A stretch of 64,000 bases of DNA from an uncultured virus (IMG/VR IMGVR_UViG_3300025769_000092) (Duplodnaviria; Heunggongvirae; Uroviricota; Caudoviricetes): IMG/VR virus record IMGVR_UViG_3300025769_000092. The stretch is one strand, 5' to 3'. Under the pieces are notes generated by a model, which did not search any database, was not told the DNA's origin, and worked only from the letters and a program-made list of their open reading frames with translations. The position numbers and the translations under genes were made by a program. Within the stretch, counting starts at the first letter, position 1, and every line of letters starts with the position of its first letter. Below are positions 8,795-37,711 of the stretch, piece after piece.

Positions 8795-8853
8795 CATGAT
8801 TATGTTTTAATGTTGGTAATGTGAGGGGAGAGAAATCTCCCCAAACATTTTTT
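8795..8853 (+). terminator. antisense-to-leader element followed by intrinsic terminator
   Basis: catgattatgttttaatgttggtaa then ggggaga-gaaa-tctcccc hairpin and T run. Confidence 0.65.
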
Positions 8854-8930
8854 GTATAATAAATTATAATTTTATTGGAATAATGAAACTAATTTACTAT
8901 ATTTGTATATAAGATTAAAACTAAATAATT

Positions 8931-9203
8931 ATGGAAATGATAAAATTTGAAATGGAAGTGTTGATTGAGTACAACTATTCCGAATTATTACTAACAAACT
9001 TGATGTTAAATAAAGCTAAAAAAATAGCTAATAAAGGAAAGGAATTTGCTAGAGAACATGGTAAATTAATGTCAGCAGTTGATTGGGAAAAAAAGATAAT
9101 CAGAATTAATGAGAACCTAGATTCTGTTGGTATAATGATGATGTCTAAAGAAGCAGAATGTTTCGACCTAAGTGGAAAATACGAAACTATGTGTCTTAAT
9201 TAA
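8931..9203 (+). CDS. hypothetical protein
   Basis: ORF with own promoter. Confidence 0.7.
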   Translation: MEMIKFEMEVLIEYNYSELLLTNLMLNKAKKIANKGKEFAREHGKLMSAVDWEKKIIRINENLDSVGIMMMSKEAECFDLSGKYETMCLN

Positions 9204-9263
9204 AATAAATTTGGAATTATAAATTATTATTTGTACATTTACAAAACATTAAAAAAATATATT

Positions 9264-10061
9264 ATGCCGAATCATGTATCAAACATATTAAAAATAGAAG
9301 GAGATAGTAAAAAAGTGTCAGAAGTATTAGAAATACTTAAAGATGAAGAAAAAGGTATAACTTTCGATAAATTTTTACCTATGCCAGAAGAACTGGTTGG
9401 AACATCAGCACCAAGTAGAATAGTTAGTCAGAGAGAATACGATGAAGCCAAAGAACTACTTGAATATAAATTGGCTAGTGGTGAAAAAGTTTTAAACACA
9501 TCACTACCACTAACCAAAGAAATGCAGAAAGAACTTATCGAAAAATATGGTTCTGACAATTGGTACGATTGGGCATATAGAAATTGGGGAACTAAATGGG
9601 GTGCTTACGATGGTTATCAATTATCAGAAAACTCATTATTCTTCCTAAGTGCTTGGAGTACACCACATAAGGCAATGATTAATCTATCTACCAAATATCC
9701 AGAAGTGATAATTAAAATAGAATATGCTGATGAAGATTTTGGTCATAATGTAGGTAACTATGTTTTAAAAGATGGTCAAATAATAGAAGAATACACACCA
9801 AAGGGTGGTAGTGTTGAAGCCATTAAGATGGCTTTAAATATTACAGGTGGTGAAGATTATTACTTAGGTGATAACATATACGATATGTTAGAAGAAGATA
9901 TTGATGATGTCTGGTATAATACACTATTAAATGTGATAGTTGAAAAAGAAATTGTTGATGAAAAATATCCAAAATTTGTTCAAGAATATCTACTGAATGT
10001 GTCAGTTAAAAATGAACAATATGAATATGCTTCAAAATTAAAAAATATTATAAAAGTTTAA
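9264..10061 (+). CDS. DUF1281/YubB ferredoxin-like domain protein
   Basis: MPNHVSN, NWYDWAYRNWGTKW and FLSAWSTP motifs; start moved to ATG after promoter. Confidence 0.7.
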   Translation: MPNHVSNILKIEGDSKKVSEVLEILKDEEKGITFDKFLPMPEELVGTSAPSRIVSQREYDEAKELLEYKLASGEKVLNTSLPLTKEMQKELIEKYGSDNWYDWAYRNWGTKWGAYDGYQLSENSLFFLSAWSTPHKAMINLSTKYPEVIIKIEYADEDFGHNVGNYVLKDGQIIEEYTPKGGSVEAIKMALNITGGEDYYLGDNIYDMLEEDIDDVWYNTLLNVIVEKEIVDEKYPKFVQEYLLNVSVKNEQYEYASKLKNIIKV

Positions 10062-10069
10062 ATTAAATT

Positions 10070-10285
10070 ATGGGTAATACAAGTTTAGAATTAGTAGAAC
10101 ACAAAATAGGACAATTTGGGTTTGAAGATAGTAAAGTAGTTGCTATGGGTGTAGAACATAAACAATTATTTGAGTATTGCGTTACTCAATTTAAAGTAGA
10201 ACCAATTAAAAATGGTGATATAATTAAACAAAATGTTAACAAAGTTTATAGTATTAAAATATCCGACATACCAATTATTCGGTAG
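10070..10285 (+). CDS. hypothetical protein
   Basis: ORF track. Confidence 0.65.
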   Translation: MGNTSLELVEHKIGQFGFEDSKVVAMGVEHKQLFEYCVTQFKVEPIKNGDIIKQNVNKVYSIKISDIPIIR

Positions 10286-10306
10286 GGATATATAATATAA
10301 GATATT

Positions 10307-10507
10307 ATGATAAAATATATGACAAAGAAACAAGTTATAGCTGATTTTAATACTAGCTTCTCTGATTTATTTCATAATATGTCAGAACATGAATTAGAAC
10401 ATTTCTGGGATATGAACTTAGATTTATTACTTAAAAATAAAAAAATAAGTAAAAAACAAAGAAGTATGTGGAATTTTAATAAAAAAGATTTGGAATTGTT
10501 AAATTAA
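10307..10507 (+). CDS. hypothetical protein
   Basis: ORF track. Confidence 0.6.
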   Translation: MIKYMTKKQVIADFNTSFSDLFHNMSEHELEHFWDMNLDLLLKNKKISKKQRSMWNFNKKDLELLN

Positions 10508-10546
10508 TTTCGTAATATTGTATCATAACATTAAAACATTATAATT

Positions 10547-10852
10547 ATGAGAGAATTAACAGAAGAACAATTTGATGAGCAATATGAGTTAGTAACAAAC
10601 CATATTGATGATAACGCATCATTCGATGGAAATATGTTCGAAACATTTGATGAAGAACTAACATTCGTTAGACAAATGGCTGAACAAAATAGAGTAATCA
10701 CAATCATTGAAGGTGATGAAGATTTTGAAAATGAATTTGGTGAACCAACACTAAATATGTTCTATGTGTCTGGAATGCACTTGGTAAATCGTATAGGATA
10801 TTTAGTTACCAAAGAACCAATCACAGAAGAATTTGAAGTTAAATTAGAATAA
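10547..10852 (+). CDS. conserved phage hypothetical protein
   Basis: SGMHLVNRIGYLVTK motif typical of a phage orphan family. Confidence 0.75.
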   Translation: MRELTEEQFDEQYELVTNHIDDNASFDGNMFETFDEELTFVRQMAEQNRVITIIEGDEDFENEFGEPTLNMFYVSGMHLVNRIGYLVTKEPITEEFEVKLE

Positions 10853-10960
10853 TATTTGGATAAGTGGAAACTTATCACTATATTTACAACAACATTAAAA
10901 ATAAACCAATATAATCATGCGATTAACAAATATAATTATTAATAATAAAATCGCAAAAAA

Positions 10961-11179
10961 ATGACAAAATCAAGATTTAATAACAAAACACTTGAGAGAA
11001 GTTTAGAAGAAGTTTTAAAAGACAACACATCAGCTAGAAAAGGAAGTGTTAGTGGATTCTCAATAGAAGTAATGGAGGGTAACGCATTTTCTTCTTATGT
11101 ATATTATGATGATGAAAAATCATGTGACGAGGATTTAAAAACATTAACCGAATTGCTGGAAGAAAATTTGGATAATTAA
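10961..11179 (+). CDS. hypothetical protein
   Basis: ORF track. Confidence 0.65.
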   Translation: MTKSRFNNKTLERSLEEVLKDNTSARKGSVSGFSIEVMEGNAFSSYVYYDDEKSCDEDLKTLTELLEENLDN

Positions 11180-11235
11180 AAAATTATCCTTACATTTACA
11201 CCAACATTAATTATTAACATTTAAAATTTAGAATC

Positions 11236-11703
11236 ATGGGATTAGATATGTACCTATCAAAAAAGACTTACGTTAAGAACTGGGAATTTCATAAACCAGA
11301 AGAAAAACACTCTATAAGTGTTAAAAAGAATGGTAAAGCACGTAAGGACATTAAACCAAAAAGAATATCTTATATAGTAGAAGAAGTGATGTATTGGAGA
11401 AAAGCAAACGCAATACATTCTTGGTTTGTTAATGAATGTCAAAATGGTGTTGATGAATGTCAAGAATCATATGTAAGTGGGGAACAACTTGAAGAACTTG
11501 CAAGTTTATGTGAGCAAGTTGTTGAAACTAAAAACACATCATTACTTGAAACACAAGGTGGTTTCTTCTTCGGTAGTACAGATTATGATGAATACTACTT
11601 TGAAGAATGTAAAGATACTGCAAAGCAATTAAGAAAGTTACTTGCAGAAGAACCAGAAGAAGGTTGTTATAAAGGAGATTTCTATTACCAATCTTCATGG
11701 TAG
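11236..11703 (+). CDS. conserved phage hypothetical protein (MGLDMY...YWRKAN family)
   Basis: MGLDMYL, YWRKANAIHSWF, GFFFGSTDYDEYY, YQSSW. Confidence 0.8.
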   Translation: MGLDMYLSKKTYVKNWEFHKPEEKHSISVKKNGKARKDIKPKRISYIVEEVMYWRKANAIHSWFVNECQNGVDECQESYVSGEQLEELASLCEQVVETKNTSLLETQGGFFFGSTDYDEYYFEECKDTAKQLRKLLAEEPEEGCYKGDFYYQSSW

Positions 11704-11745
11704 AATATATAAGATAATATATTATTAACATTTAAAATATACAAC

Positions 11746-12030
11746 ATGGATTCAAAAACGCAGAGCATGGGTGAAAGATTATTAAATGGAATAATCAACT
11801 ATTATGAGGATGAAGAATTCCTAAGAGCAGATGGATTCGATGATGCAGTAATCGGTGTGGATGAATCATCAATGAGATTAATCTACTCAACAACAAAGTG
11901 TGTGGAAACGCTTATGCTTCAAAGTGAAATGCTTTTAGATGAAGCATTAGAATACTTCGACTTTAATGTTAGAGGTGCTTATATGGGTGAAAAGACACCA
12001 ATATGGTGCGAAGATATGCTTTATGAATAA
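11746..12030 (+). CDS. conserved phage hypothetical protein
   Basis: ADGFDDAVIG...EYFDFNVRGAYMGEKTP motif. Confidence 0.8.
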   Translation: MDSKTQSMGERLLNGIINYYEDEEFLRADGFDDAVIGVDESSMRLIYSTTKCVETLMLQSEMLLDEALEYFDFNVRGAYMGEKTPIWCEDMLYE

Positions 12031-12152
12031 TAATATATAAGATAATATAAGTTTTTTTAAAAATAATTGGGAAATCATTTGGTGGTTTCCCATTTTTTTT
12101 GTAGTTTTACATCATAACATTAATTATTAACAATATTAAAACAGAATAAGAC

Positions 12153-12659
12153 ATGGGTTGGTGGAGTACAAATATTTTAGGTGGCGATAGTCCACTAGAT
12201 TGGAAAGCAAGTTTATACAATAAACTAGATATACCTTACTTTAGTGAAGAACAGGGTATTAAAACACATGATGGTTATGGTTTAATCACACCAGATGATA
12301 TGAACCGAACCACACAGAATAATCTAATACAATATGTCTTAGAATCAACTCAAGAGTCATTTGACAAGTGGGGTGAATGTGATAGTAGAAGTATTGGTAT
12401 GCAAGTCCTTGCACTTATGATATTAAAGTCTGGTGCTAAGATGACCAATAAGAACAAGAAAGAACTATCCAAGTGGATTAAGCTAGATGAATGGGCAACA
12501 GAAGACCATGAACGTAAAAACCACATTGATGAGTTATTATACGCTATCGAGAAGTATGATAACACACCAATGAAGTATCAAGGTAAAGGATTATTCCAAA
12601 AATTAGCAGAAACAATCTCTGGAACTGAAATAGAACCAAGTGGATTTAAAAATATATAA
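12153..12659 (+). CDS. hypothetical protein
   Basis: ORF with own promoter; MGWW start. Confidence 0.75.
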   Translation: MGWWSTNILGGDSPLDWKASLYNKLDIPYFSEEQGIKTHDGYGLITPDDMNRTTQNNLIQYVLESTQESFDKWGECDSRSIGMQVLALMILKSGAKMTNKNKKELSKWIKLDEWATEDHERKNHIDELLYAIEKYDNTPMKYQGKGLFQKLAETISGTEIEPSGFKNI

Positions 12660-12665
12660 GATAGT

Positions 12666-13151
12666 ATGAATATTTTTGTATTAGACCAAGACCCAAGAGT
12701 ATGTGCAGTTTATCATAATGATAAGCACGTTGTTAAGATGATTCTTGAATCGGCACAATTACTTTGTGGAGTACACCATATGACAGAATCAAACCTAGAT
12801 GTTCCATACGGATTATCACATAAGAATCACCCATGCTCAATATGGGCAAGGAAGTGCATAGAGAATTATATATGGCTTTGTGACTTAGGATTGGAACTAT
12901 CTAAGGAATATACTCACAGATATGGTAAAAGACATAAATCACAGGACATAATAGAATGGTGTATGACCAATCTACCTAACCTACCAGAATTTGGTGACAT
13001 CACAGAACACCCAAAAGCTATGCCCGAAGAATGTAAAACTGATGATGTGGTAGAATCATATAGAAGATACTATATTATGGAAAAGAAAAGTTTTTGTAAT
13101 TGGAAAAATAGAGAAATACCAAATTGGTTCAAAAAAGATTTGGATAATTAA
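12666..13151 (+). CDS. pyrimidine dimer DNA glycosylase / endonuclease V-like protein
   Basis: MNIFVLD, DKHVVKMILESAQLL, HKNHPCSIW, EYTHRYGKRHKS motifs. Confidence 0.75.
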   Translation: MNIFVLDQDPRVCAVYHNDKHVVKMILESAQLLCGVHHMTESNLDVPYGLSHKNHPCSIWARKCIENYIWLCDLGLELSKEYTHRYGKRHKSQDIIEWCMTNLPNLPEFGDITEHPKAMPEECKTDDVVESYRRYYIMEKKSFCNWKNREIPNWFKKDLDN

Positions 13152-13197
13152 AATACTTTTCGTACATTTACATCATAACATTAAAACAATAAGAATT

Positions 13198-13488
13198 ATG
13201 TCAGATTTAAAAACAGAAACGTATCAAGTAGAAGTTAGAATAAGAGATTCATGGGGTGACATATTCACCGATTCAGATGGTAATAATGTACCACATATAA
13301 GATTAGAAAGAACTATAAATCCACTATTCTTAGATACAATGCTTAAAAGAATACATAAGGACTTTCAAGCTATTACACCAGAAGGTTCTGATATTGATAT
13401 AGAAGTTTACCTACCTAACTCCATTAGTGGTACATGGATGAACATGGCTTCATACTATGGTAGCGAAGAAAGATTTGTAACACACTAA
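13198..13488 (+). CDS. hypothetical protein
   Basis: ORF with own promoter. Confidence 0.7.
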   Translation: MSDLKTETYQVEVRIRDSWGDIFTDSDGNNVPHIRLERTINPLFLDTMLKRIHKDFQAITPEGSDIDIEVYLPNSISGTWMNMASYYGSEERFVTH

Positions 13489-13506
13489 TATAATAAAATA
13501 CAATAT

Positions 13507-13938
13507 ATGAAAAAAAGAGAACTAACAGAAAAAGAAATCCAAAAGTGTTCTGAACTATTAGCTAAGGACTATCACCACATGGATGAAGAAAAATATGAAG
13601 CAATGAAATCACTTGAAATGTTCGATATGAATATGTTTTCAAAAGAATCTAAAGTAGGTACTGATGACTTCTTAGATACTATGCTTGATGAAATGGATGA
13701 TTTAAGGAACAACACAAACATGGCTATCGAAACACCATTTGGTACGCTAGTTATAATCGTACACCTAAACAAAACAACTATCAAAAGTTATAAGGATGAA
13801 GAATCCTATGACTTAGGTATTATTAACGAAAAAGATGTCCTAAACAAAGCAATATCACAAATATTCATTGATAAGGATGGTGATGCAAAATTTTGTCATG
13901 ATTTGAATATTCTGGGAACTTTTGTTGAAGAAGATTAA
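13507..13938 (+). CDS. hypothetical protein
   Basis: ORF track. Confidence 0.7.
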   Translation: MKKRELTEKEIQKCSELLAKDYHHMDEEKYEAMKSLEMFDMNMFSKESKVGTDDFLDTMLDEMDDLRNNTNMAIETPFGTLVIIVHLNKTTIKSYKDEESYDLGIINEKDVLNKAISQIFIDKDGDAKFCHDLNILGTFVEED

Positions 13939-14014
13939 AATAAATTTGGATAAGTAAAATATTATTCATACATTTACATCATAACATTATTAACAACATT
14001 AAAACAATTTAATT

Positions 14015-14380
14015 ATGGGATGCTTTAGTTTTATATGCAAGGAATCAGATAAACCAGTAGCTTCATCATCATTCGATGGTGACTCAGTTAGAATGTACCT
14101 TTTAAAGAAAGGAAAGGTAATCGAAGAAATGAGAGGACAATACGACTCATACGGAAGATGCTTCGATAAAAATATGAAATCAATGAAATGGAGTATGGAT
14201 TGGTCAGAAGTATGCGACCTTATGTTCTCTGATAAGGATGGTGATGGTATTGCAGTTGTCCTAGAAGAATACTTTGATGGAACTATACCAACTACTCAAA
14301 GCCAAGATGACCCAGAACAAGGTTGGGGTGAATCTCAATCAACCAACCCATACGTAGAACCGAAACATATTATTCACTAA
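14015..14380 (+). CDS. conserved phage hypothetical protein
   Basis: MGCFSF...YDSYGR...DDPEQGWG motif. Confidence 0.75.
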   Translation: MGCFSFICKESDKPVASSSFDGDSVRMYLLKKGKVIEEMRGQYDSYGRCFDKNMKSMKWSMDWSEVCDLMFSDKDGDGIAVVLEEYFDGTIPTTQSQDDPEQGWGESQSTNPYVEPKHIIH

Positions 14381-14446
14381 TATATTTGGATATATCAATT
14401 TTATTTCTTACATTTACATTATCAATAATTAAAACAATTAAAAATT

Positions 14447-14830
14447 ATGGGAACATACATAAACATTACTGATAGAAGACTTACTAAAAAGAATGTAGAA
14501 CTAAATGGTGAAAAAGTTAAAGTTGATTTCGCACCATTCAGCCATAAACCATCCATCAACTATGACAATCCACCAGAGATTGAAAAAAAGATGGAACGTG
14601 CTTGGAATATGCCCAAAGATAAACAAGCAGACTATATAGTATTTGCTAAACCAAGTGATGAATACCTAGATAGCTACCATGTATATAAAAGTAACAAGAA
14701 AGCCATCTGGTCTGATGGTTCTGGTTTCTGGTCTGGTCTGCATTGGGAAAATGACCTTGTAGGTACACTAAAAAATAATGGTAGAAAATGGTTCATAGAA
14801 CCAAAAGAATTACCAATCGAACTAAGATAA
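14447..14830 (+). CDS. hypothetical protein
   Basis: ORF with own promoter. Confidence 0.7.
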   Translation: MGTYINITDRRLTKKNVELNGEKVKVDFAPFSHKPSINYDNPPEIEKKMERAWNMPKDKQADYIVFAKPSDEYLDSYHVYKSNKKAIWSDGSGFWSGLHWENDLVGTLKNNGRKWFIEPKELPIELR

Positions 14831-14838
14831 GCATTACA

Positions 14839-15048
14839 ATGAGAGATGATTTAGATTATGATGGAATGGGAAATCAAGGGAGAGTACCACAAATAAAAAC
14901 AAAAATGAATAATAATAAAGAAGCAATTATATTATCCAAAATTATTGTAGGTATCGCAATACTAATCGCAGTAGCTACATACCCACCAATTATATTTGTA
15001 GGTATCCTAGCATTTGCTATCTATACCCTACACAAAGCATATAAATAA
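14839..15048 (+). CDS. small membrane protein
   Basis: C-terminal hydrophobic hairpin; start uncertain (14839 or 14905). Confidence 0.55.
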   Translation: MRDDLDYDGMGNQGRVPQIKTKMNNNKEAIILSKIIVGIAILIAVATYPPIIFVGILAFAIYTLHKAYK

Positions 15049-15055
15049 AAGATGT

Positions 15056-18831: not shown

Positions 18832-18956
18832 TTCTTGAGATATGCAAGGGATGTGGGTATTAGTTATCCACATCCTTTTGTTAATAACTAAATTTGCAAT
18901 TGTCGATTTTATTTCGTACCTTTGCAAATTTTTTATTTATAGGTATTAAAAAAAAT

Positions 18957-19056
18957 AGGGGTGTTGTGGAGTCTACTCTTTCACTCTTTAAGGAGCGACC
19001 CGTTTCTCTTTCGAACCAACAATACAAATATCGGAATAATAAATGAGACTACCAAA
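18957..19056 (-). ncRNA. small structured RNA repeat copy 2 (with promoter)
   Basis: ACGGG-TCGCTC/GAGTGA hairpin-AAGAGTAGACTCC. Confidence 0.65.
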
Positions 19057-19158
19057 CTTTTAGGCAATAAAAAAAAATAAAAAATATATGCTATAATATT
19101 TGCATAAGTGAAAAGTAATTCCGATATTGCACTATCGTTAAATTAAAAACCTATTATT

Positions 19159-19773: not shown

Positions 19774-19858
19774 ATTTTAAAGATATCCTATATTATATTT
19801 GGTAGTATGGGATATCTTTTGTATATTGCACTATCGTTAAACATTAAAACCTATAATT

Positions 19859-21207: not shown

Positions 21208-21297
21208 AAATAAATTAAAGATATCTTATATTATATTTGGTAGTATGAGATATCTTTTGTATATTTACATATCGTTAAACATTAAAACAAATAAGTT

Positions 21298-21570
21298 ATG
21301 AGAATTTCAAAAGTAGTAGCAACAGAATTAATCAACAAATCAAAAGGTAAAATCTTTACGGCAACATTTTTAAAAAAGAATGGTGAGTTAAGAAAAATGA
21401 ATTGTAGGTTGGGAGTTAATAAGGGAGTTAATGGTAAGGGTATGAATTATAACCCAACACTTAAAGCATTAAAACCCGTATTCGATATGCAAGTAAAGGA
21501 ATGGAGAACTATTAACCTGGAAAGCATTAAGGAGTTAAGTATTAACAAAGAAAAATATATTGTTGGTTAA
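21298..21570 (+). CDS. SH3-fold/WYL-like phage protein
   Basis: IFTATFLKKNGELRKMNCRLGV...VFDMQVKEWRTI. Confidence 0.65.
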   Translation: MRISKVVATELINKSKGKIFTATFLKKNGELRKMNCRLGVNKGVNGKGMNYNPTLKALKPVFDMQVKEWRTINLESIKELSINKEKYIVG

Positions 21571-21576
21571 GCAATA

Positions 21577-21730
21577 ATAAAATCGATAGCAAGAGCATAC
21601 AACGGACAAGGCTAAGGCGAGTGAGTTGTAACATGTTGAGGGTAGGAGTTGAAAAACGTTTGGACTAACGGCATGTACAATAACAAATCGGTGGGATGCG
21701 AGTGGTTGACCAATGCTCTTGCGATTTTAT
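21577..21730 (+). ncRNA. candidate ~150-nt multibranch structured RNA
   Basis: long closing stem (ataaaatc + gcaagagcat / atgctcttgc + gattttat) and two internal stems. Confidence 0.45.
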
Positions 21731-27841: not shown

Positions 27842-27906
27842 CATAGTAACTTGTTTTAGGTTTAACGAAGGAAAAGAAGGTTACCAGTTTGGTAGCCTCT
27901 TTTTTT
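27842..27906 (+). terminator. antisense-to-leader element plus intrinsic terminator
   Basis: catagtaacttgttttaggtttaac then ggttacca/tggtagcc hairpin and T run. Confidence 0.65.
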
Positions 27907-31360: not shown

Positions 31361-31448
31361 GGCGTGACGGAGTCTACTCTTCTGAGGTGTTAGCTCAGCC
31401 CGTCTCAATGACAATACAAATATGGGGATAATATTTCACATATCCAAA
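31361..31448 (-). ncRNA. small structured RNA repeat copy 5 (with promoter)
   Basis: 63 bp identical to copy 4. Confidence 0.65.
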
Positions 31449-31550
31449 TAAAAAGACAAAAAAATTAAATAAAAAATATATGCTATAATATTTGCATAAG
31501 TGAAAAGTAATTCCGATATTTACACCATCGTTAAATTAAAACTAAAAGTT

Positions 31551-31850
31551 ATGGCAAAGAAAACAAAAACATGGAAAATTGGTGAATATGCTAAAGGAGG
31601 CGTAATTACCGTTGAAATACAGGGTGAAATAATTACTGTAATTGGTAAGGATTGGGATATGTCCCAAGGAACTAGAAGGAGTAGTAACCAAAGTAATGCT
31701 AAAGAGTTTACAAGGGGAACAGTATTATCTAGTCAAGATAATTGTAGAAGACTTTTAAGTAATTTTCTTAATGATTTAACAACTTCATACTATTCAGATA
31801 AAATAATTGAATGGATTGAAAATATCCAAATAAACAGGGAAAAAAATTAA
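31551..31850 (+). CDS. hypothetical protein (paralog of 30181-30465)
   Basis: KTWKIGEYAKGGVITVEI...YSDKIIEWIE; start adjusted. Confidence 0.7.
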   Translation: MAKKTKTWKIGEYAKGGVITVEIQGEIITVIGKDWDMSQGTRRSSNQSNAKEFTRGTVLSSQDNCRRLLSNFLNDLTTSYYSDKIIEWIENIQINREKN

Positions 31851-31932
31851 ATAAAAAATATCCTGTATTATATTTGGTATATTAAAATAAAGTTTGTACA
31901 TTTACACCATCGTTAAATTAAAACTAAAAGTT

Positions 31933-32400
31933 ATGGGAAAACAAAGAGATTTAAAATTATTAGAAAAGCAAATATTGGATGATGCCAAGAATGGTGACAC
32001 AACAGTACTTGCAGAGATACTTGAATCATTAGATGAGGAATATATATTTAATTCATTAAGTGATGTTAACCAAGAGAGAACTAACTTCCAACAGTTAAAG
32101 GGTGGTGAACGCATCGTTGCTTTGGTTAATACTAATGGAGTTTCTAATTCTTATAACACACCAGAACGTATAGATATTGAAAAGGGTACTATATTAAGAT
32201 GTCCAAATAGTGGTACAAGAATGGGTGATGCTTTTGCTACTTTAGTTAGAGGTAACGCAGTTAAACATTGTAGAGGTTATAATGAGGGTGAAAAACAAGA
32301 ATTAAAAGGTGGTGATACTATTGGTTTAAGTGGTGGTTATAAGTCAGCACCTTATTCATTGGGTAGTATTGATTTAAGAGTTTGGAAAATAATAGATTAA
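31933..32400 (+). CDS. hypothetical protein
   Basis: ORF with own promoter, start adjusted. Confidence 0.7.
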   Translation: MGKQRDLKLLEKQILDDAKNGDTTVLAEILESLDEEYIFNSLSDVNQERTNFQQLKGGERIVALVNTNGVSNSYNTPERIDIEKGTILRCPNSGTRMGDAFATLVRGNAVKHCRGYNEGEKQELKGGDTIGLSGGYKSAPYSLGSIDLRVWKIID

Positions 32401-32477
32401 AATATATACTATTATATTTGGTATATTAAAATAAAGTTTGTATATTTACACTATCGTTAAACAAAAATAATAATACT

Positions 32478-32696
32478 ATGGGTAAATTAAAAATTGGAGA
32501 GGTTGTAAAGTGGAAAGGTTGTTTTGGAACAGATACACCAAAGGATGCAGTTGTTAAGGGTATTCAAATTACCAATGGTGGTAAGTATGGTGATGAAGTT
32601 AATGAGGTTTCATGGTCAAAAATGTATGGTAGAAATGTTGTTGTAACTTTAGATAATAGACATTGGGCATACGCATCTCAAATATCTAAAAAATAA
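32478..32696 (+). CDS. hypothetical SH3-like protein
   Basis: LKIGEVVKW...LDNRHWAY. Confidence 0.65.
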   Translation: MGKLKIGEVVKWKGCFGTDTPKDAVVKGIQITNGGKYGDEVNEVSWSKMYGRNVVVTLDNRHWAYASQISKK

Positions 32697-32791
32697 ATTA
32701 ATGGGGAAATGTAAAAGTTTCCCCTTTTTTATTTGGATAATTAAATATAATATTGTATATTTGTATTGTTAAATAATTAAACAATATTACT

Positions 32792-33034
32792 ATGAATAAG
32801 GAAAAATTTGTTTTATATAGATTCTTTGATGGTGAAAGTAAATTAAAATATGCCGTACTAGAAAAAAAAGAATACGATTTATTAAAATTGGTTGATAGAG
32901 ATTTATGTTGTAGAACTGTTTCAGTCAGTGAAGATGAAAGGGGTTTAGAGTGTGCTAGTATAGAACTTAATAAACTAGGTGAAGAACTTGAAGAAGCTTG
33001 GGAAAAAGAATATAAAAATAATTTGTATAATTAA
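32792..33034 (+). CDS. hypothetical protein
   Basis: ORF with own promoter. Confidence 0.65.
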   Translation: MNKEKFVLYRFFDGESKLKYAVLEKKEYDLLKLVDRDLCCRTVSVSEDERGLECASIELNKLGEELEEAWEKEYKNNLYN

Positions 33035-33095
33035 ATATAATATTGTATATTTGTTATATAATTAAAAAACGTCAAACTAAATAAAAAATAAAACT

Positions 33096-33746
33096 ATGGG
33101 ACAGTATTACAAATCAGTATTTTTAAATGAAAATAATAAACCAATAAGTTATGGTTATAGCCATGACTTTGGAAGTGGACTTAAACTAATGGAACACTCT
33201 TGGATGTTAAATCCTTTTGTTAGATTCATTGAGAACCAATTAATGCTACAAGCACAAAAGTTAGTTTGGGCGGGAGATTATGCAGACAATGAGAACCCCG
33301 AAACAATTACTAATAAAGAAATAAAAGCTTTAAGTAGTGAAGATAGCGAATATTGGAACGCTGAAATATTAAAAAAAGAGGGTATTAATTTATATAGTCT
33401 TTCTGAATTAGTTGGTAAAATTACCCATGACGAAGAAATTCCAAAAGATAAAAGTAAATACGATTATAAGTATAAAAAGATAGCACCTCTTCAAGCTAAG
33501 TATTTAATAAACTATGATAAGAAAGAGTTTGTTAATAAAACTAAAGTACCTAAAGATAGTGAGGGTTGGCAAATACATCCTTTACCATTATTAACTTGTG
33601 AAGGAAACGGCAGAGGTGGTGGAGATTTCAGAGGGGATGAGACTAAATTAATTGGTCGTTGGTCTAGAGATAAAATAGGAGTTGTTACTAAAAAAAGTGA
33701 AGTACCTAAAGACTTCAAAGAAATAATATTTGATTTAACAGAATAA
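33096..33746 (+). CDS. conserved phage hypothetical protein
   Basis: MGQYY, GLKLMEHSW, WAGDYAD, IHPLPLLTCEGNGRGGGD. Confidence 0.8.
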   Translation: MGQYYKSVFLNENNKPISYGYSHDFGSGLKLMEHSWMLNPFVRFIENQLMLQAQKLVWAGDYADNENPETITNKEIKALSSEDSEYWNAEILKKEGINLYSLSELVGKITHDEEIPKDKSKYDYKYKKIAPLQAKYLINYDKKEFVNKTKVPKDSEGWQIHPLPLLTCEGNGRGGGDFRGDETKLIGRWSRDKIGVVTKKSEVPKDFKEIIFDLTE

Positions 33747-33807
33747 ATTAGGATAAGTAAATATAATATTGTATATTTGTATTGTTAAATAATTAAACAA
33801 TATTACT

Positions 33808-33972
33808 ATGAAAATCGGAACTTATACTAAAGAGCAACAAAGAATTAATAATAGAAAAATATCTAGAGAAATAGAACTAGAGAATAAAACGGGTTGGACT
33901 GCGATACATAAAACCCACAAATCTAAAAAGAATTATTCTAGAAAAAATAAACATAAAAGTTTTGAATATTAA
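33808..33972 (+). CDS. small basic protein with ArfA-like C-terminal tail
   Basis: manually read 54-aa ORF ending HKSKKNYSRKNKHKSFEY; own promoter. Confidence 0.55.
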   Translation: MKIGTYTKEQQRINNRKISREIELENKTGWTAIHKTHKSKKNYSRKNKHKSFEY

Positions 33973-34129
33973 AAAATTATTTGTACATTTACACCAACAT
34001 TAATCAATCACTTAAAACATAAAACATGGGAAGAAATTTAGACATCAAATTCGCATTAACATCAGTAACATTATTTATGGGGTTTATTATCTATAACATT
34101 ATAGTACACGGAATTCCAAATATCTAAAC

Positions 34130-34192
34130 CATAGTAAGTTTAGTTGTTTAACACGAGGAAAGACACTCTAATTATTTAGGGTGTTTTTTTTT
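34130..34192 (+). terminator. antisense-to-leader element plus intrinsic terminator
   Basis: catagtaagtttagttgtttaac then gacactctaa/ttagggtgtt hairpin and T run. Confidence 0.65.
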
Positions 34193-34438
34193 GTCTATAA
34201 ATTTGGATAACTGAATTATTTTCCTTATCTTTATATTAAGTTAAACAAAAACAAATTACTATGTTACAAATTTCAGAAGAACAATTAGAACAAGCAATTA
34301 AGAACGCAAAAATTGCAATCTCATTTGAAGATGAGGAATTACAAAAGCAATATTTTAGAGGTGTTAAAGATACCCTAGAGAATTTACTAGCAAAAGCAAA
34401 AGCAAATGAAATAATAAATAAGTTTTAAATTAAATATT

Positions 34439-34717
34439 ATGGCTAGAACAAAATACTATTATATTTGGATAGAAGGTATCTCACCTAGAAATGGTGAACT
34501 ATTAAAAACATTAACCAATTATGGTTATGACGTTACAAATAAAATAACTGAGGCATTAAGGGTTAAAGAAGATGATTTAAATTATATTAAAGATTATCTA
34601 TCTAGGCATGGTGTTGCAGATTGGGTATTAGAAAATCCAGAAAGTTATGTTAGAACTAATTATGCGCCTAGTGGAACAATTCTTAACTTAAAAGGAAATC
34701 TTATTAAAAATTATTAG
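34439..34717 (+). CDS. hypothetical protein
   Basis: ORF track. Confidence 0.65.
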   Translation: MARTKYYYIWIEGISPRNGELLKTLTNYGYDVTNKITEALRVKEDDLNYIKDYLSRHGVADWVLENPESYVRTNYAPSGTILNLKGNLIKNY

Positions 34718-34773
34718 GATATATAAAATATTTTCCTTATCTTTATACTATCGTTAAACAAAACAACAATACT

Positions 34774-34983
34774 ATGGTAAGGTCAACAATTAGTTTTTAT
34801 GAATGTGAGCATCAAGGAGATTTAAATAATATCCTAGAAGATATGAGGTCTTGTGGTGCTAAGATTGGTTACACTAGATTAGATGTAGATGAGGAAACTT
34901 GTACTATTGAATATGAGGTAGAAGATATGGGTGAGTTTGCTATCCAATTTAAAGACACAGAAAGTTATGATTTTATTAATTAA
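34774..34983 (+). CDS. hypothetical protein
   Basis: ORF with own promoter. Confidence 0.65.
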   Translation: MVRSTISFYECEHQGDLNNILEDMRSCGAKIGYTRLDVDEETCTIEYEVEDMGEFAIQFKDTESYDFIN

Positions 34984-35248
34984 AAGTTTGCATAATTAAA
35001 ATATTTTATTTACCTTTACACTATCGTTAAACAAAACAACAATACTATGAGAAAAGGAAAAGATAAGAAATGGTTTAAGATATGGTCTCCAATATTTGAA
35101 TTGACTGTTATTACAGGAGTACTGACTATTTTAATCTATATACTGTTAATAAAGTGTTAATAACTTTAGTGAAAAAAGTATTAAAAAATTTCTTAATATC
35201 ACAAAAAATACTTACCTTTACACTATCGTTAAACAAAAACAAACTATT

Positions 35249-35515
35249 ATGAAAACATTTAAAGATTTAGAATTTAATACACACCCAAGCGCACCATACT
35301 TTATGCAACAAGCACGAATGGATTTTGATAATGGGTTTGGTATATCAGTTGTTAATGGTCAAGGCGCATATTGTGGTGTTGGGACTTATGAAGTTGGTGT
35401 CCTATTTGAAGGTGCTTTAACTTATGATACTCATATAACAAATGATGTTATAGGTCATTTATCACCTAAAGAGATTACAGAGATAATGAAAGATATTCAA
35501 GAACTAACGTCATAG
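35249..35515 (+). CDS. conserved phage hypothetical protein
   Basis: FDNGFGISVV...YEVGVL...YDTHITNDVIG. Confidence 0.8.
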   Translation: MKTFKDLEFNTHPSAPYFMQQARMDFDNGFGISVVNGQGAYCGVGTYEVGVLFEGALTYDTHITNDVIGHLSPKEITEIMKDIQELTS

Positions 35516-35571
35516 TAAGTTAGTAGTTTAACAACAAGGAAAGGCACTCATCTAATGGGTGCTTTTTTTTT
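35511..35571 (+). terminator. antisense-to-leader element plus intrinsic terminator
   Basis: catagtaagttagtagtttaac then ggcactcat/atgggtgct hairpin and T run. Confidence 0.65.
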
Positions 35572-35640
35572 ATCTAATAATTTGGAATATTAAATATAAT
35601 ATAGTATATTTGTATAAGTTAAACAAATAATAATAATACT

Positions 35641-35940
35641 ATGGAAAGGCAAGAAGTAATATCGTTTTTAGAGGGGTTGGTTGGACAAAGATTTAATATG
35701 CAATCACTTAATGATAAATTAGAAAAAGTATTTAAGCAAAAGGTTGAATTACAAAACACATCATTATTAAGGGAACAAGAAAATGATGATGATGACCTAG
35801 CAGACTATAACCTAATGTTTAATATAGAAGATGGTAGCGAACAATCGGGGTTTTTTGATATCTATATGTTACCAATGAGAAGAAAGGGTTTTGATGGTGC
35901 AGATATGTATATCACAGAAGTTGGTTATGAATTTGGATAA
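35641..35940 (+). CDS. hypothetical protein
   Basis: ORF with own promoter. Confidence 0.7.
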   Translation: MERQEVISFLEGLVGQRFNMQSLNDKLEKVFKQKVELQNTSLLREQENDDDDLADYNLMFNIEDGSEQSGFFDIYMLPMRRKGFDGADMYITEVGYEFG

Positions 35941-35991
35941 GTCAATTATTTTCTTTATCTTTATATTATCGTTAAACAAAAACAAACTACT

Positions 35992-36336
35992 ATGGATTAT
36001 CAATTAGCATTTAGACAAGACAAAAGTATTTTAATTGACTACATTACTGAAAACATTATAAAGTCAATTGAGTTTTGGAACAGAGAGTCGGAAGATATAT
36101 ATAACCAAAACATACAAGGAACATTAGGGACTAAAGAAACAAATCAATTTGCTAGAGATACACAACAAGATGATTGGCTTAATGAGATGATTCTTATTGA
36201 TTGTAAGACATTTTGTAATAGCAAGAGAGGTAAAGAGTTAAACTATTCTTGTGGTAGAACTAGAAGTCATGTATGGTTACATAAAGATGATGAAAGAATT
36301 CTTATGATTTATGCTGATAAAGATTTGGATAATTAA
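35992..36336 (+). CDS. hypothetical protein
   Basis: ORF with own promoter. Confidence 0.7.
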   Translation: MDYQLAFRQDKSILIDYITENIIKSIEFWNRESEDIYNQNIQGTLGTKETNQFARDTQQDDWLNEMILIDCKTFCNSKRGKELNYSCGRTRSHVWLHKDDERILMIYADKDLDN

Positions 36337-36383
36337 AATATTATCCTTATCTTTATACTATCGTTAAACAAAACAACAATACT

Positions 36384-36719
36384 ATGTGGTGGCATTATAA
36401 AGAAGGTGATAAGGTATCTTGGAAACAAAGAGATAGAAAGGTTAGACCTAATATGGATGTTTCTGATTACAAAGAAAAGAGATATAAATTAACTAAACTT
36501 TTTCAGAGTAAAAAAATAAATGTCAGAGTTTATTTTGATAAGTCAATAGAGTTAGAAGACAAGTATTTTTATAAGGGTTATTTTGAGACTAATAGTGGGG
36601 TTAATTTAGTTGTTAGGCAAATTGAAAACACTATAAATAATAATACTTATTACTTATTAGATAACGGACGTGTTATTATCTCTGGTCAATTAAAATTAAT
36701 TGAAAAGAATTTGCATTAA
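36384..36719 (+). CDS. hypothetical protein
   Basis: ORF with own promoter. Confidence 0.7.
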   Translation: MWWHYKEGDKVSWKQRDRKVRPNMDVSDYKEKRYKLTKLFQSKKINVRVYFDKSIELEDKYFYKGYFETNSGVNLVVRQIENTINNNTYYLLDNGRVIISGQLKLIEKNLH

Positions 36720-36782
36720 ATTAGGATATACAAATTATTATCCTTATCTTTATACTATCGTTAAACACAAAAACTTATTATT

Positions 36783-37085
36783 ATGGAATTAATGGAATTT
36801 TTCAGAACAGAGCAATTTGCTAAAGAGGTAGCAGATAATTTAAACAAACCACAAATTCAATTCATACTTAAAAAGGGTAAAGAATTTTTAGAGTTTGCAA
36901 CACACATTAAGAATAATTGTCTTTACTTTGATTATGAGGTAACACCCGAAACAATAGACAATGACATCAAGTGTTTATATTGGAATTTAAGAGAGTTAAG
37001 AAAGGCACTAATTCAAAAAAGAAATGAGCCAATTCAATATGTTACATTAAGTAATGAAATGCACTCACCAATTTACTTAAACTAA
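36783..37085 (+). CDS. hypothetical protein
   Basis: ORF with own promoter. Confidence 0.7.
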   Translation: MELMEFFRTEQFAKEVADNLNKPQIQFILKKGKEFLEFATHIKNNCLYFDYEVTPETIDNDIKCLYWNLRELRKALIQKRNEPIQYVTLSNEMHSPIYLN

Positions 37086-37649
37086 TGGATAAGAATATTG
37101 ACCATAAGATAGAAACATATCCCACCATGACCTTTGAGGGCTGGTGGGCATATATGTTCAGTCATCTAATTATCTATGACTTAAAAGATACTCATTGTAT
37201 TCATAAGGATAAAGAAGGTAATAGTTGGTTGAAAAGAAAAGCAAAATAAATTTGGATAATTAAATACTATTTTGTATATTTGTTATAAGTCAAACAAACA
37301 ATAAGAAACTATGAAAGATATAAAAGTATTTATAATTTATAGCATCTGCCTATTAGTTATGGGTTGGTGTTTGATAGATACAATTATTAAAGCTATAAAT
37401 TAAATAAAAACAAATTAACATGAAAACAACATACCCAAAAGAGCCAATATTTGATTTCAATGAATGGATTAAATATATTAATCAAGAAGTAACCAAATTA
37501 AAATAAAACAAAGATGAGTAAAGAAAATAAAAAAACATTTGAATGTATTGAGCATGGGGAAAAATTCCTAATAGATGCTAAAGATATTAATGAAGCAAAA
37601 GAGGTCGCCCAAATGTATGGTGGCAGTGTAATAAGAGAAATTAAAAGTT

Positions 37650-37711
37650 CATAGTAAGTAAGTAGTTTAACAAGTAGAAAGGCACTTCAATTTATTTTGA
37701 GGTGCTTTTTT
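37650..37711 (+). terminator. antisense-to-leader element plus intrinsic terminator
   Basis: catagtaagtaagtagtttaac then ggcacttcaa/ttgaggtgct hairpin and T run. Confidence 0.65.

What the first reader, a model, noticed from the sequence alone, without database searches (positions are those of the whole stretch)
8795..37711. 3'-end 'anti-leader' elements complementary to the shared 5' leader plus AUG of early mRNAs, co-varying with the leader class
Seen: four elements directly before terminators (27842, 34130, 35511, 37650) read CATAGTAA-N7-10-GTTTAAC. Their reverse complement (e.g. gttaaacctaaaacaagttactatg) mirrors the leader used by many genes at 19-40 kb (atcGTTAAACaaaacaacaaTACTATG; gttaaacaaaaacaaattactatg at ~34240). 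In the first sub-array (3-16 kb) the leaders are instead AACATTAAAA...AATCATG/ATTATG. The matching pre-terminator element there (8795-8819, catgattatgttttaatgttggtaa) is the reverse complement of that leader class (ttaccaacattaaaacataatcatg). This coordinated change argues against chance in AT-rich DNA. Inference: either cis 5'-3' fold-back that masks the start codon (as in hok/sok-type mRNAs) or 3'-UTR-derived sRNAs that silence a whole early regulon in trans, i.e. a built-in shut-off timer.
Basis: partly seen in the sequence, partly recalled or inferred. Interest (0 to 1): 0.8.

Follow-up and report, generated by a model that had tools for sequence, protein, structure and literature searches.

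The report
Terminator-linked anti-leader RNA elements
In a very large phage of SD-less (Bacteroidota-type) bacteria, short sequences placed just before some transcription terminators are the exact antisense of the shared 5' leader plus start codon of the phage's many small genes, and they change together with the leader in related phages, which points to an RNA-RNA pairing switch that has not yet been tested in the lab.

Summary
CATAGTAA-N7-10-GTTTAAC occurs 6 times against 0 expected. Four copies on the coding strand each lie 9-10 nt before an intrinsic terminator; the two others are true leaders. 8795-8819 is the antisense of the other leader class.

The window is jumbo-phage DNA. Most of its small genes carry their own Bacteroidota-type promoter (-33 TTTG, -7 TAnnTTTG) and a conserved SD-less leader.

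The elements are not minus-strand gene starts (ORFs of 2-12 codons) and not a general three-frame stop (3 of 10). A relative 80-93% identical keeps them even where the terminator hairpin was replaced. More distant phages carry other matched leader/anti-leader classes. In one of these, L224, the element sits in a tRNA trailer.

Across 17 loci and 171 terminators, pre-terminator segments pair best with their own phage's leaders (26 rank-1 against 10.1 expected; Fisher p about 1e-6), and three controls are null.

Folding puts the leader and AUG in a duplex with the element in 10 of 17 transcripts ending at these terminators and in 0 of 21 ending elsewhere.

Best reading: RNA pairing that closes or masks the 5' UTR, in cis and possibly in trans. 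No expression data could be obtained, so the mechanism is not shown.

The parts
8795..8819 (+). Class-1 anti-leader. Its conserved core CATGATTATGTTTTAATGTTG is antisense to AACATTAAAAC...ATAATCATG leaders.
   Evidence: Sequence. The core is kept in relative G001 at 8266 although the terminator after it is a different hairpin. Duplex z is -4.8 against shuffles.
8825..8854 (+). Intrinsic terminator-like hairpin (GGGGAGA...TCTCCCC) with a T-run.
27842..27866 (+). Class-2 anti-leader (CATAGTAACTTGTTTTAGGTTTAAC).
   Evidence: z is -8.0. Together with its terminator it forms a module of about 85 nt that is absent from G001 and present in L269 and L272.
27875..27906 (+). Terminator hairpin and T-run of the 27842 module.
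34130..34152 (+). Class-2 anti-leader (CATAGTAAGTTTAGTTGTTTAAC).
   Evidence: z is -10.1. It is predicted to pair with the leaders of genes 32792, 33096 and 33808 in the same unit and with the downstream leader at 34240-34263 on read-through.
34162..34192 (+). Terminator hairpin and T-run.
35511..35532 (+). Class-2 anti-leader (CATAGTAAGTTAGTAGTTTAAC). Its TAG at 35513-35515 is the stop codon of ORF 35249-35515.
   Evidence: z is -5.0. An identical copy lies in G001 at 39139.
35542..35572 (+). Terminator hairpin and T-run.
37650..37671 (+). Class-2 anti-leader (CATAGTAAGTAAGTAGTTTAAC). Its TAG at 37652-37654 is the stop codon of ORF 37514-37654.
   Evidence: z is -3.1. The G001 ortholog at 41244 has a changed centre (GTTGGTG) and a different terminator, but the same two end boxes.
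37680..37712 (+). Terminator hairpin and T-run.
34236..34263 (+). Example of a class-2 leader (GTTAAACAAAAACAAATTACTATG) behind its promoter.
33786..33810 (+). Leader of gene 33808, the best same-unit partner of the 34130 element.
   Evidence: Duplex energy -22.2 kcal/mol, rank 3 of 86. 21.5 expected pairs and AUG pairing probability 1.0 in the 408-nt transcript.
7208..7237 (+). Leader of gene 7235, the best same-unit partner of the 8795 element.
   Evidence: Rank 2 of 86 at -20.1. 18.0 expected pairs and AUG probability 1.0.
35581..35612 (+). Example of the repeated Bacteroidota-type promoter (TTTGG-N19-TATATTTG) that precedes most genes of the array.
   Evidence: 55 of 86 + strand starts have a -7 motif 10-48 nt upstream.

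Best explanation
The elements work as RNA. The setting is a phage gene array in which most small genes carry a portable promoter-plus-leader cassette without a Shine-Dalgarno sequence. Some terminators carry a second portable cassette: a stretch of 21-25 nt directly 5' of the terminator hairpin that is antisense to the leader, from within about 3 nt of the inferred transcription start through the AUG.

Proposed mechanism. When RNA polymerase reaches the end of the unit, this stretch pairs with the 5'-terminal leader of the same transcript. That closes the mRNA into a 5'-3' panhandle and buries the AUG and the unstructured A-rich initiation region on which SD-less translation depends. The expected effect is to stop new initiation at the 5'-proximal gene of finished transcripts, and perhaps to alter decay, either by protecting the 5' end or by creating a double-strand RNase site.

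What is shown: the complementarity, its position, its conservation, its co-variation and the predicted folds. What is inferred: the transcription start sites, termination, pairing in cells and the effect on translation.

My odds are about 0.7 that the function is RNA pairing with leaders in some mode, and 0.35 that intramolecular closure is the main mode.
For: 1. Exact boundaries. The complement ends at CAT (anti-AUG). At the other end it reaches GTTTAAC, the antisense of GTTAAAC. GTTAAAC begins 6-7 nt after the -7 box. [quoted passage not shown]

2. Position. All 4 coding-strand class-2 copies and the class-1 copy lie directly before terminators and nowhere else in the array.

3. Conservation under turnover. 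In six aligned copies from the window and G001, CATAGTAAGT and GTTTAACA are invariant while the centre, spacer and terminator stems vary. Two orthologs keep the element but have a different terminator hairpin.

4. Co-variation. Other matched pairs exist:
- L224 has leader TGTCTAATAATTAAAAC..CATTATG and element CATAATGGTAGTTTTAAATTGACA.
- L290 has leader ..AACCACAAGATTATG and three pre-terminator copies of CTTGTGGTT.
- In 17 loci with 171 terminators, the own phage's leaders rank first for 26 segments against 10.1 expected. D<-1.5 holds for 10/171 own against 16/2736 pseudo-own pairings, Fisher p 9e-7.
- Three controls are null: segments 100 nt further upstream, reversed segments and reverse-complemented segments.

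5. Folding of whole putative transcripts.
- 10 of 17 transcripts ending at the five element-bearing terminators give at least 11.9 expected leader:element pairs with AUG pairing probability at least 0.77, at lengths up to 1.6 kb.
- 0 of 21 transcripts ending at 11 other terminators do so (maximum 8.4 pairs, AUG at most 0.45).
- In G001, 2 of 7 meet the same criteria (16.0 and 18.2 pairs, AUG 0.98) and a third pairs partly (12.3 pairs, AUG 0.39).

6. Host logic. In Bacteroidetes, initiation lacks SD pairing and is tuned by structure in the initiation region (PMC6847099, abstract and passages).
Against: - No RNA data exist for this phage. Starts, ends and pairing are therefore all inferred.
- Only 5 of about 18 terminators carry an element, so most leader-bearing transcripts would have no cis partner.
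- 7 of 17 modelled transcripts do not close. These include the shortest ones, made from the promoters nearest to 34130 (190 nt) and 27842 (259 nt).
- For 27842 the best own-unit leader ranks only 33 of 86.
- The 35511 and 37650 duplexes are weak (-13 to -16 kcal/mol) because their centres do not pair.
- In nested transcripts one element can mask only one leader.
- In L224 the element follows a tRNA, whose processing would cut it away from any 5' leader.
- Sense duplexes beat the mirror-strand duplexes in only 7 of 10 cases, so strand-specific (G-U) support for an RNA over a DNA reading is weak.
- One related phage region (G004, 28 terminators) shows no such element.
- The per-locus test is modest: own phage is best of 17 in 3 of 17 loci.
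- Thermodynamic folds of long AU-rich RNAs ignore ribosomes and co-transcriptional folding.
Confidence: 0.35

Rival explanations
1. Trans-acting 3'-derived small RNA. The element plus terminator hairpin (about 60-65 nt), or the short mRNAs that carry it, accumulate and pair with the shared leader/AUG of many mRNAs of the array. This would be a regulon-wide RNA repressor made by the phage against its own genes.
For: - The architecture is that of a seed directly 5' of an intrinsic terminator.
- The seed is predicted to be mostly single-stranded in the isolated 3' fragment (mean unpaired probability 0.57-0.91).
- In L224 the element begins 10 nt after a tRNA (Rfam 36.8 bits against a threshold of 29; sequence), so tRNA 3' processing would release it.
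- The transcripts from the nearest promoters to 34130 and 27842 have non-matching leaders, which leaves the element free.
- The best partners often lie in other units. For 27842 they are 39791 and 35992 at -24.8 and -22.6.
- Few elements (5) against about 50 leader-bearing promoters fits a few regulators with many targets.
- The 3' end of a multi-promoter unit receives the summed transcription of all its promoters (inference).
- L290 carries only 9-12 nt seeds.
Against: - No evidence of a stable fragment or of processing.
- Where a matching leader is on the same molecule, intramolecular pairing should win.
- Stoichiometry against dozens of strongly promoted mRNAs is unknown.
- No RNA chaperone was identified (Pfam scan of 126 proteins).
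Confidence: 0.27
2. Read-through insulator or processing hairpin. In transcripts that pass the terminator, the element pairs with the next leader 87-110 nt downstream. The terminator and the promoter-derived sequence then sit in the loop. This would block translation of the downstream gene from read-through RNA or create a double-strand RNase site.
For: Local folds from the element to the next gene give a pairing probability of 0.96-1.0 with the downstream AUG in 3 of 5 cases (8795, 34130, 35511). In L224 the downstream leader is also a reasonable partner (read by eye).
Against: - The other two cases fail or are partial: 27842 gives AUG 0.38 and 37650 gives 0.26.
- Downstream leaders rank only 25, 42, 7, 16 and 42 of 86 as partners.
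- Orthologous cassettes keep the element while the downstream promoter-leader is swapped.
- Most genes of the array are read through from upstream promoters without any insulation.
Confidence: 0.1
3. DNA-level origin without RNA function. The elements would be inverted partial copies of the leader left by recombination among the repeated cassettes, or sites for a DNA-binding protein that reads the leader box in either orientation.
For: - The array is highly recombinogenic. Window and G001 are mosaics with blocks that end at intergenic cassettes and with changed gene order.
- The anti-leader plus terminator module is an indel.
- The four class-2 copies are paralogs.
- The sense-versus-mirror test is not decisive (7 of 10).
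- A local inverted duplication would match the local leader class without any selection.
Against: - The boundaries are sharp at the inferred start and at the ATG in three or more sequence classes.
- The elements always lie directly before a terminator.
- The end boxes are invariant while neighbouring parts turn over.
- The own-phage complementarity is position-specific across 17 loci, with null controls.
- A protein site would need a co-evolving protein in every lineage.
Confidence: 0.15
4. Three-frame translational stop cassette placed before the terminator, so that any ORF fused upstream by recombination is terminated.
For: 35511, 37650 and G001 39139 have stop codons in all three frames. 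In 35511 and 37650 the element supplies the stop codon of the upstream ORF.
Against: - Only 3 of 10 elements cover all three frames, and G001 37786 covers one.
- The L224 element follows a tRNA, not an ORF.
- This reading does not explain the conserved CA before TAG, nor the match to the leader class.
Confidence: 0.03
5. Start regions of real minus-strand genes.
For: On the minus strand each element reads as a leader followed by ATG.
Against: The minus-strand frames opened by these ATGs stop after 2-12 codons (read from the sequences). No Bacteroidota-type promoter match lies upstream of any of them on that strand (the - strand list has none at these sites).
Confidence: 0.01

Closest known systems
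5'-3' UTR pairing in bacterial mRNAs: icaR of Staphylococcus aureus (PMC3868564, listing and start of abstract seen) and hbs of Bacillus subtilis (PMC5737220, abstract read)
   Same: A 3'-terminal sequence of the mRNA pairs with its own 5' UTR. In hbs a 14-bp long-range interaction modulates RNase cleavage (abstract). For icaR the title states that the pairing controls translation.
   Different: Those are single genes with private sequences. As I recall (not from a call), icaR uses an anti-SD motif. Here there is no SD, the complement covers the whole UTR and the AUG, and both partners are portable cassettes shared by many genes and co-varying between phages.
hok mRNA fold-back inhibition (recalled, no call)
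   Same: A 3'-end element pairs with the 5' end and keeps the full-length mRNA translationally inert.
   Different: No toxin ORF, no overlapping mok-type frame and no Sok-type antisense gene is seen. Activation by 3' trimming is untested.
3'-UTR-derived and tRNA-trailer-derived small RNAs of enterobacteria (recalled, no call); sRNAs exist in Bacteroides (PMC7366714, listing only)
   Same: A seed lies directly upstream of an intrinsic terminator at the end of an mRNA or tRNA transcript.
   Different: Here the predicted targets are the phage's own leader family. No processing, chaperone or stable fragment has been shown.
PeSL cassettes (promoter-early stem-loop) of T4-type phages (PMC4122927, abstract, passages and figure legends read; PMC2839356, listing only)
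   Same: Repeated composite intergenic cassettes (stem-loop, early promoter, ribosome-binding region, start codon) flank small variable genes and mark indels and shuffling between close relatives. The same behaviour is seen here.
   Different: The promoters here are of the Bacteroidota -33/-7 type and the leaders have no SD. The anti-leader part is not in the PeSL description: the word 'complementary' occurs 0 times in PMC4122927.
T7 early mRNA in which a 3' end left by RNase III pairs with a ribosome-binding region (recalled, no call)
   Same: In a phage early transcript, the 3'-terminal sequence is antisense to an initiation region.
   Different: That is a single site that depends on RNase III processing. 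Here there is a family of terminator-linked elements, and the enzymology is unknown.

Membership tests
hok/sok-type fold-back mRNA | A 3'-end element complementary to the 5' end or initiation region of the same mRNA | tested here: met
   Predicted only: 10 of 17 modelled transcripts and 2 of 7 in G001 meeting the same criteria.
hok/sok-type fold-back mRNA | A small toxin ORF with an overlapping leader ORF and a cis-encoded antisense RNA gene | tested here: not met
   No Hok-type Pfam hit among the 126 proteins scanned. The upstream ORFs are unrelated to each other, and in L224 the upstream gene is a tRNA. No antisense promoter lies at the leaders in the scan.
hok/sok-type fold-back mRNA | Activation by slow 3' trimming | not testable with these tools
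   No RNA data.
icaR-type 5'-3' UTR interaction | A 3' UTR motif pairs with the translation initiation region of the same mRNA | tested here: met
   Predicted AUG pairing probability of at least 0.77 in 10 of 17 transcripts.
icaR-type 5'-3' UTR interaction | Anti-SD motif pairing with a Shine-Dalgarno sequence (feature recalled) | tested here: not met
   The leaders are A/U/C-rich without a GGAG-like box. The complement targets the UTR and the AUG.
icaR-type 5'-3' UTR interaction | Duplex cleaved by RNase III | not testable with these tools
   No RNA or enzyme data.
3'-derived (terminator-sharing) sRNA | A seed immediately 5' of an intrinsic terminator | tested here: met
   9-10 nt spacing in all five window elements.
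3'-derived (terminator-sharing) sRNA | Accessible (single-stranded) seed | tested here: inconclusive
   Mean unpaired probability is 0.57-0.91 in isolated 3' fragments and 0.54 in the 190-nt transcript. These are in-silico values only.
3'-derived (terminator-sharing) sRNA | A discrete stable RNA species, whether processed or separately transcribed | not testable with these tools
Location in a tRNA trailer in L224 makes release plausible.
PeSL regulatory cassettes | A repeated composite of stem-loop, early promoter, initiation region and start codon between small genes | tested here: met
   Alignment A1, promoters and leaders. The definition was taken from PMC4122927.
PeSL regulatory cassettes | T4-type phage with sigma-70-like -35/-10 early promoter and an SD | tested here: not met
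   Sigma-70-type matches are not above the shuffle expectation (117 against 132, and 133 against 132). The promoters are TTTG/TAnnTTTG and there is no SD.
PeSL regulatory cassettes | Cassettes mark indels and shuffling between close relatives | tested here: met
   Mosaic blocks and changed gene order against G001, and the 85-nt module indel.
Integron attC site | Inverse core RYYYAAC and core GTTRRRY (consensus recalled) | tested here: met
   GTTTAAC and GTTAAAC fit the recalled consensus, but these are low-information 7-mers in AT-rich DNA.
Integron attC site | An imperfect inverted repeat inside the two cores that folds as a hairpin, with an integron integrase nearby | tested here: not met
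   The complementarity runs outward from the cores, and the inside holds a terminator and a promoter. No integrase-family Pfam hit appears among the 126 proteins.

The most novel reading that the evidence does not exclude
SD-less Bacteroidota phages use a portable, co-evolving two-cassette RNA 'zipper'. One cassette is a promoter-leader unit in front of nearly every small gene. The other is a terminator-linked anti-leader. Anti-leader RNAs, either still attached to finished mRNAs or released from mRNA 3' ends and tRNA trailers, pair with the common leader/AUG. They thereby switch off (or stabilise) a whole regulon without any protein factor. This would be an RNA-only counterpart of the T4 RegA/RegB type of early-gene shut-off, and it travels with the cassettes when genes are shuffled.
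Probability: 0.3. Interest if true: 0.85.

Novelty: new variant of a known kind. Interest (0 to 1): 0.68.

Why it matters
- Scale. If real, this is a family-wide 5'/3' pairing system rather than a single-gene one. It would regulate tens of phage genes through one shared leader in a phylum whose translation start sites lack SD sequences and depend on open structure.
- Evolution. It would explain why leaders are kept so uniform in these hyper-variable gene arrays. It would also add an RNA layer to the cassette model of gene shuffling.
- Practical use. It gives a simple sequence rule for finding regulators in uncultivated jumbo phages: antisense of the local leader directly before a terminator.
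- Tools. It could supply compact translational off-switches for Bacteroidota genetics.

Tried and rejected
- Loose pattern scan of IMG/VR. It gave 119+ loci with a single match each, judged to be mostly chance hits (L023, in the same contig as L122, is a true relative), so it was not used.
- Exact 23-nt promoter-leader string in IMG/VR: no hit.
- Relatives of the 88-aa protein upstream of 35511. 80 loci were returned and 56 printed. Only the G001 copy has the element, so the element is not tied to that gene family.
- k-mer coverage scan for antisense-leader words along the array. It was swamped by AT-rich low complexity: the reversed control had more windows (3464) than the antisense set (1521). 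It was uninformative and was dropped.
- Sense versus mirror-strand duplex energies, meant to separate an RNA from a DNA reading: 7 of 10, not decisive.
- Own-unit preference, from the ranks combined by hand. Best own-unit ranks of 86 are 2, 33, 2, 8 and 1. My Fisher-combined p is about 0.07, confounded by local clustering of leader classes, so it does not separate cis from trans.
- Three-frame stop cassette, minus-strand genes, integron attC and MITE-like ends (no target-site duplication seen by eye) were each considered and rejected.
- tRNA and Rfam scans of the window: nothing found.
- No whole genome is held for the window.
- Sequencing-run search and earlier findings were not available.
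- timed out without output and was rerun on a smaller set. The G001 8292 terminator had no modelled transcript within the 1100-nt limit.
- The terminator finder used for the cross-phage test missed the window's 8825 hairpin, so class 1 is not part of that test.

Full report
WHAT THE WINDOW IS

The DNA has 27-34% G+C. From 1 to about 41 kb nearly all genes are small and lie on the + strand. A Pfam scan of 126 ORFs finds:
- SmpB (496-939)
- a sigma-70 family protein (967-1902)
- a ClpB-like ATPase (62076-63998, - strand)
- glutamine-synthetase-like and acyl-CoA-dehydrogenase-like proteins
- thioredoxin
- phage families GP88 and DUF932

Most ORFs have no family. The only matches in the phage collection are weak (68% identity over 6-18% of the query) to 'uncultured phage' records of 635-735 kb. 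The closest relative, G001, is a 158-kb IMG/VR contig rated 48% complete. I therefore read the window as part of a jumbo phage.

Its promoters are of the Bacteroidota type, -33 TTTG and -7 TAnnTTTG (consensus as given in PMC6847099, passages seen). Sigma-70-type matches are not above shuffles. The leaders have no Shine-Dalgarno box. 55 of 86 + strand starts between 2 and 41.5 kb have a -7 motif 10-48 nt upstream, so most genes carry their own promoter-leader cassette.

- CATAGTAA-N7-10-GTTTAAC occurs 6 times against 0.00 expected.
- The four + strand copies (27842, 34130, 35511, 37650) each end 9-10 nt before a hairpin with a T-run.
- The two - strand matches are true leaders, of genes 21954 and 34261.
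- CATAGTAA occurs nowhere else on the + strand of the array.
- 8795-8819 is the antisense of the AACATTAAAAC...ATCATG/ATTATG leaders of the first sub-array and precedes the hairpin at 8825-8842.
- The start contexts differ between the sub-arrays. ACTATG occurs in 2 of 36 starts before 17 kb and in 18 of 50 after it. The split is not clean, because AACATTAAAA also occurs in leaders at 19.8-29.8 kb.
- Only 5 of about 18 terminators carry an element.
- The four class-2 copies are paralogs of one cassette: element, A-rich spacer, GGAAAG-type hairpin, T-run, promoter, leader (alignment A1).

WHAT THE ELEMENTS ARE NOT

- The ATGs they would give on the minus strand open frames of only 2-12 codons (read).
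- Stops in all three frames occur in only 3 of 10 elements.
- The resemblance of GTTTAAC/GTTAAAC to integron core sites (recalled consensus) fails on structure and on the lack of an integrase.

CONSERVATION

G001 is 70-93% identical in most blocks (68-99.6% overall) and is a mosaic with changed gene order.
- It keeps the class-1 element at 8266 although the hairpin after it is a different sequence.
- It keeps three class-2 elements at 37786, 39139 and 41244.
- In six aligned copies CATAGTAAGT and GTTTAACA are invariant, while the centre, the spacer, the hairpin stems (with compensating changes) and the downstream promoter-leader vary.
- The 41244 copy has a new centre (GTTGGTG) and a new hairpin.
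- The 27842 element and its terminator form a module of about 85 nt that is absent from G001. The module is present in the metagenome loci L269 and L272, and class-2 elements occur in L264-L267, L269 and L272.

The element therefore behaves as a discrete module whose two end boxes are constrained.

CO-VARIATION BEYOND THE WINDOW

More distant relatives were found through the 216-aa protein at 33096-33746.
- L224 (52% protein identity) uses leaders TGTCTAATAATTAAAAC...CATTATG. It has CATAATGGTAGTTTTAAATTGACAAAAC directly before a terminator. The element begins 10 nt after a tRNA confirmed by Rfam (36.8 bits against a threshold of 29).
- L290 (48%) uses leaders ending ...TTAAAACCACAAGATTATG. It has three different terminators each preceded by CTTGTGGTT(A/G)AG.
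- Shorter antisense copies of the start-proximal box precede terminators in L278 (GTTTGAC against GTCAAAC), L311 (TGATTAGA against TCTAATCA), L223 and G003. These were matched by eye after an energy screen.

An unbiased test used 17 loci and 171 terminators. It scored each 40-nt pre-terminator segment against 8-10 leaders (10 in all but one locus) of every locus.
- The own phage ranked first for 26 segments against 10.1 expected.
- A strong own-phage excess (D<-1.5) was seen in 10 of 171 segments against 16 of 2736 pseudo-own pairings (Fisher p 9e-7).
- Three controls were null: segments 100 nt further upstream (8 rank-1 against 9.9 expected, p 0.57), reversed segments and reverse complements.

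Results against the reading:
- The per-locus version is modest. The own phage is best of 17 in 3 of 17 loci.
- G004 (28 terminators) shows nothing.
- Several copies within one phage are not independent.
- The window's class-1 terminator was missed by the finder and is not in the test.

HOW IT PROBABLY WORKS

The complement starts within about 3 nt of the inferred transcription start. This assumes the 4 nt between the -7 box and +1 found in F. johnsoniae (PMC6847099 section 14). It ends exactly at the AUG.

Duplex energies of the five segments against 83 leaders are z -3.1 to -10.1 below shuffles. The 13 other terminators range from +1.5 to -4.1.

Whole putative transcripts were folded from each promoter to the next terminator.
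- 10 of 17 transcripts ending at the five element-bearing terminators give at least 11.9 expected leader:element pairs with the AUG paired at p of at least 0.77, at lengths up to 1.6 kb.
- 0 of 21 transcripts ending at 11 other terminators do so (maximum 8.4 pairs, AUG at most 0.45).
- In G001, 2 of 7 meet the same criteria and a third pairs partly (12.3 pairs, AUG 0.39).

In Bacteroidetes initiation has no SD pairing and is tuned by structure around the start (PMC6847099, abstract and passages). Such a duplex should therefore block initiation.

I commit to RNA pairing with the leader (about 0.7 in any mode). The leading mode (0.35) is closure of the finished transcript onto its own 5' end.

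THE MAIN RIVAL IS TRANS ACTION (0.27)

- The L224 element sits in a tRNA trailer.
- The shortest transcripts carrying 34130 and 27842 have non-matching leaders.
- The best partners are often in other units.
- The seed is predicted to be largely unpaired in the 3' fragment.
- Five elements face about fifty leader-bearing promoters.

OTHER RIVALS

- Read-through pairing with the next leader is predicted in 3 of 5 cases. It is contradicted by swapped downstream cassettes and by poor partner ranks.
- A purely DNA-level origin (0.15) is not excluded. The array recombines freely, and the sense-versus-mirror test is only 7 of 10. Against it stand the sharp boundaries, the fixed position and the position-specific own-phage complementarity.

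No RNA data could be obtained. Starts, ends, pairing and effect therefore remain inferred.

COMPARISON WITH KNOWN SYSTEMS

- The cassettes as such resemble the PeSL elements of T4-type phages: a stem-loop, an early promoter, an SD and a start codon, associated with indels (PMC4122927). They differ in having Bacteroidota promoters and no SD, and the anti-leader is not part of the PeSL description.
- The pairing resembles the 5'-3' UTR interactions of icaR (PMC3868564, listing and start of abstract) and hbs (PMC5737220, abstract). It also resembles the hok fold-back and a T7 early-mRNA case, both recalled.
- It differs from all of these in being a shared, portable pair of modules that co-varies between phages.
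- Two literature searches for phage sRNAs acting on early genes and for conserved intergenic motifs in huge or Bacteroidetes phages (listings only) showed nothing of this kind. That is not proof that it is unpublished.

VERDICT

The feature is real and non-random. It is most likely a terminator-linked antisense-to-leader RNA module. I class it as a new variant of known 5'/3' pairing and 3'-derived regulators. The mechanism is open between cis and trans. Interest 0.68.

Noticed in passing
window 19779-19819; also L223 9606 and 11462, G002 (L258) 4435 and 9843, and many in G004 (L261-L263, - strand): Long hairpins followed by a T-run whose loop holds the -33 box TTTGG of the next promoter (for example GATATCC..TTTGG..GGATATC). 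They could be combined terminator-promoter stem-loops, or structures that occlude the -33 box. They recur across the related phages.
   Followed up: partly
window 18880-19060 (+) and 40090-40265 (-): Two copies of a promoter-driven, apparently non-coding element: TACCTTTGCA promoter, GTGTTG(T)GGAGTCTACTCT, then CAACAATACAAATATCGGAATAA..TGAGACTACCAAA (alignment A4). They lie in opposite orientation on either side of the 19-40 kb sub-array. Neither Rfam nor the tRNA scan hits them.
   Followed up: partly
window 34027-34127: A 33-codon ORF with its own promoter. By eye it encodes a hydrophobic peptide. It makes up most of a putative 190-nt transcript that ends in the 34130 element, so this could be a dual-function small RNA. 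An ortholog with the same layout lies in G001 at 37524.
   Followed up: no
window 496-1902, 43697-46439, 62076-63998: Host-like genes in a phage context: SmpB, a sigma-70 family factor, an acyl-CoA dehydrogenase-like protein, a glutamine-synthetase-like protein and a ClpB-like ATPase. No tmRNA or tRNA was found in the window.
   Followed up: no
window 3-41 kb against G001: Gene-by-gene mosaic with transposed blocks. For example, window 7163-7620 and 7614-7906 are in swapped order in G001; 21235-21716 maps to G001 33.9 kb; and 38004-38355 maps to G001 26.8 kb. Block ends fall in the intergenic cassettes.
   Followed up: partly
L224 2742-2875: A tRNA gene of 134 nt (Rfam 36.8 bits) with an insert of about 60 nt that ARAGORN did not call. 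By eye it is a class II (Ser-like, UGA anticodon) tRNA with an oversized variable region or an intron.
   Followed up: no
window 6386-6406: A terminator-like hairpin lies directly in front of gene 6436 with no promoter between them, so that gene would depend on read-through.
   Followed up: no
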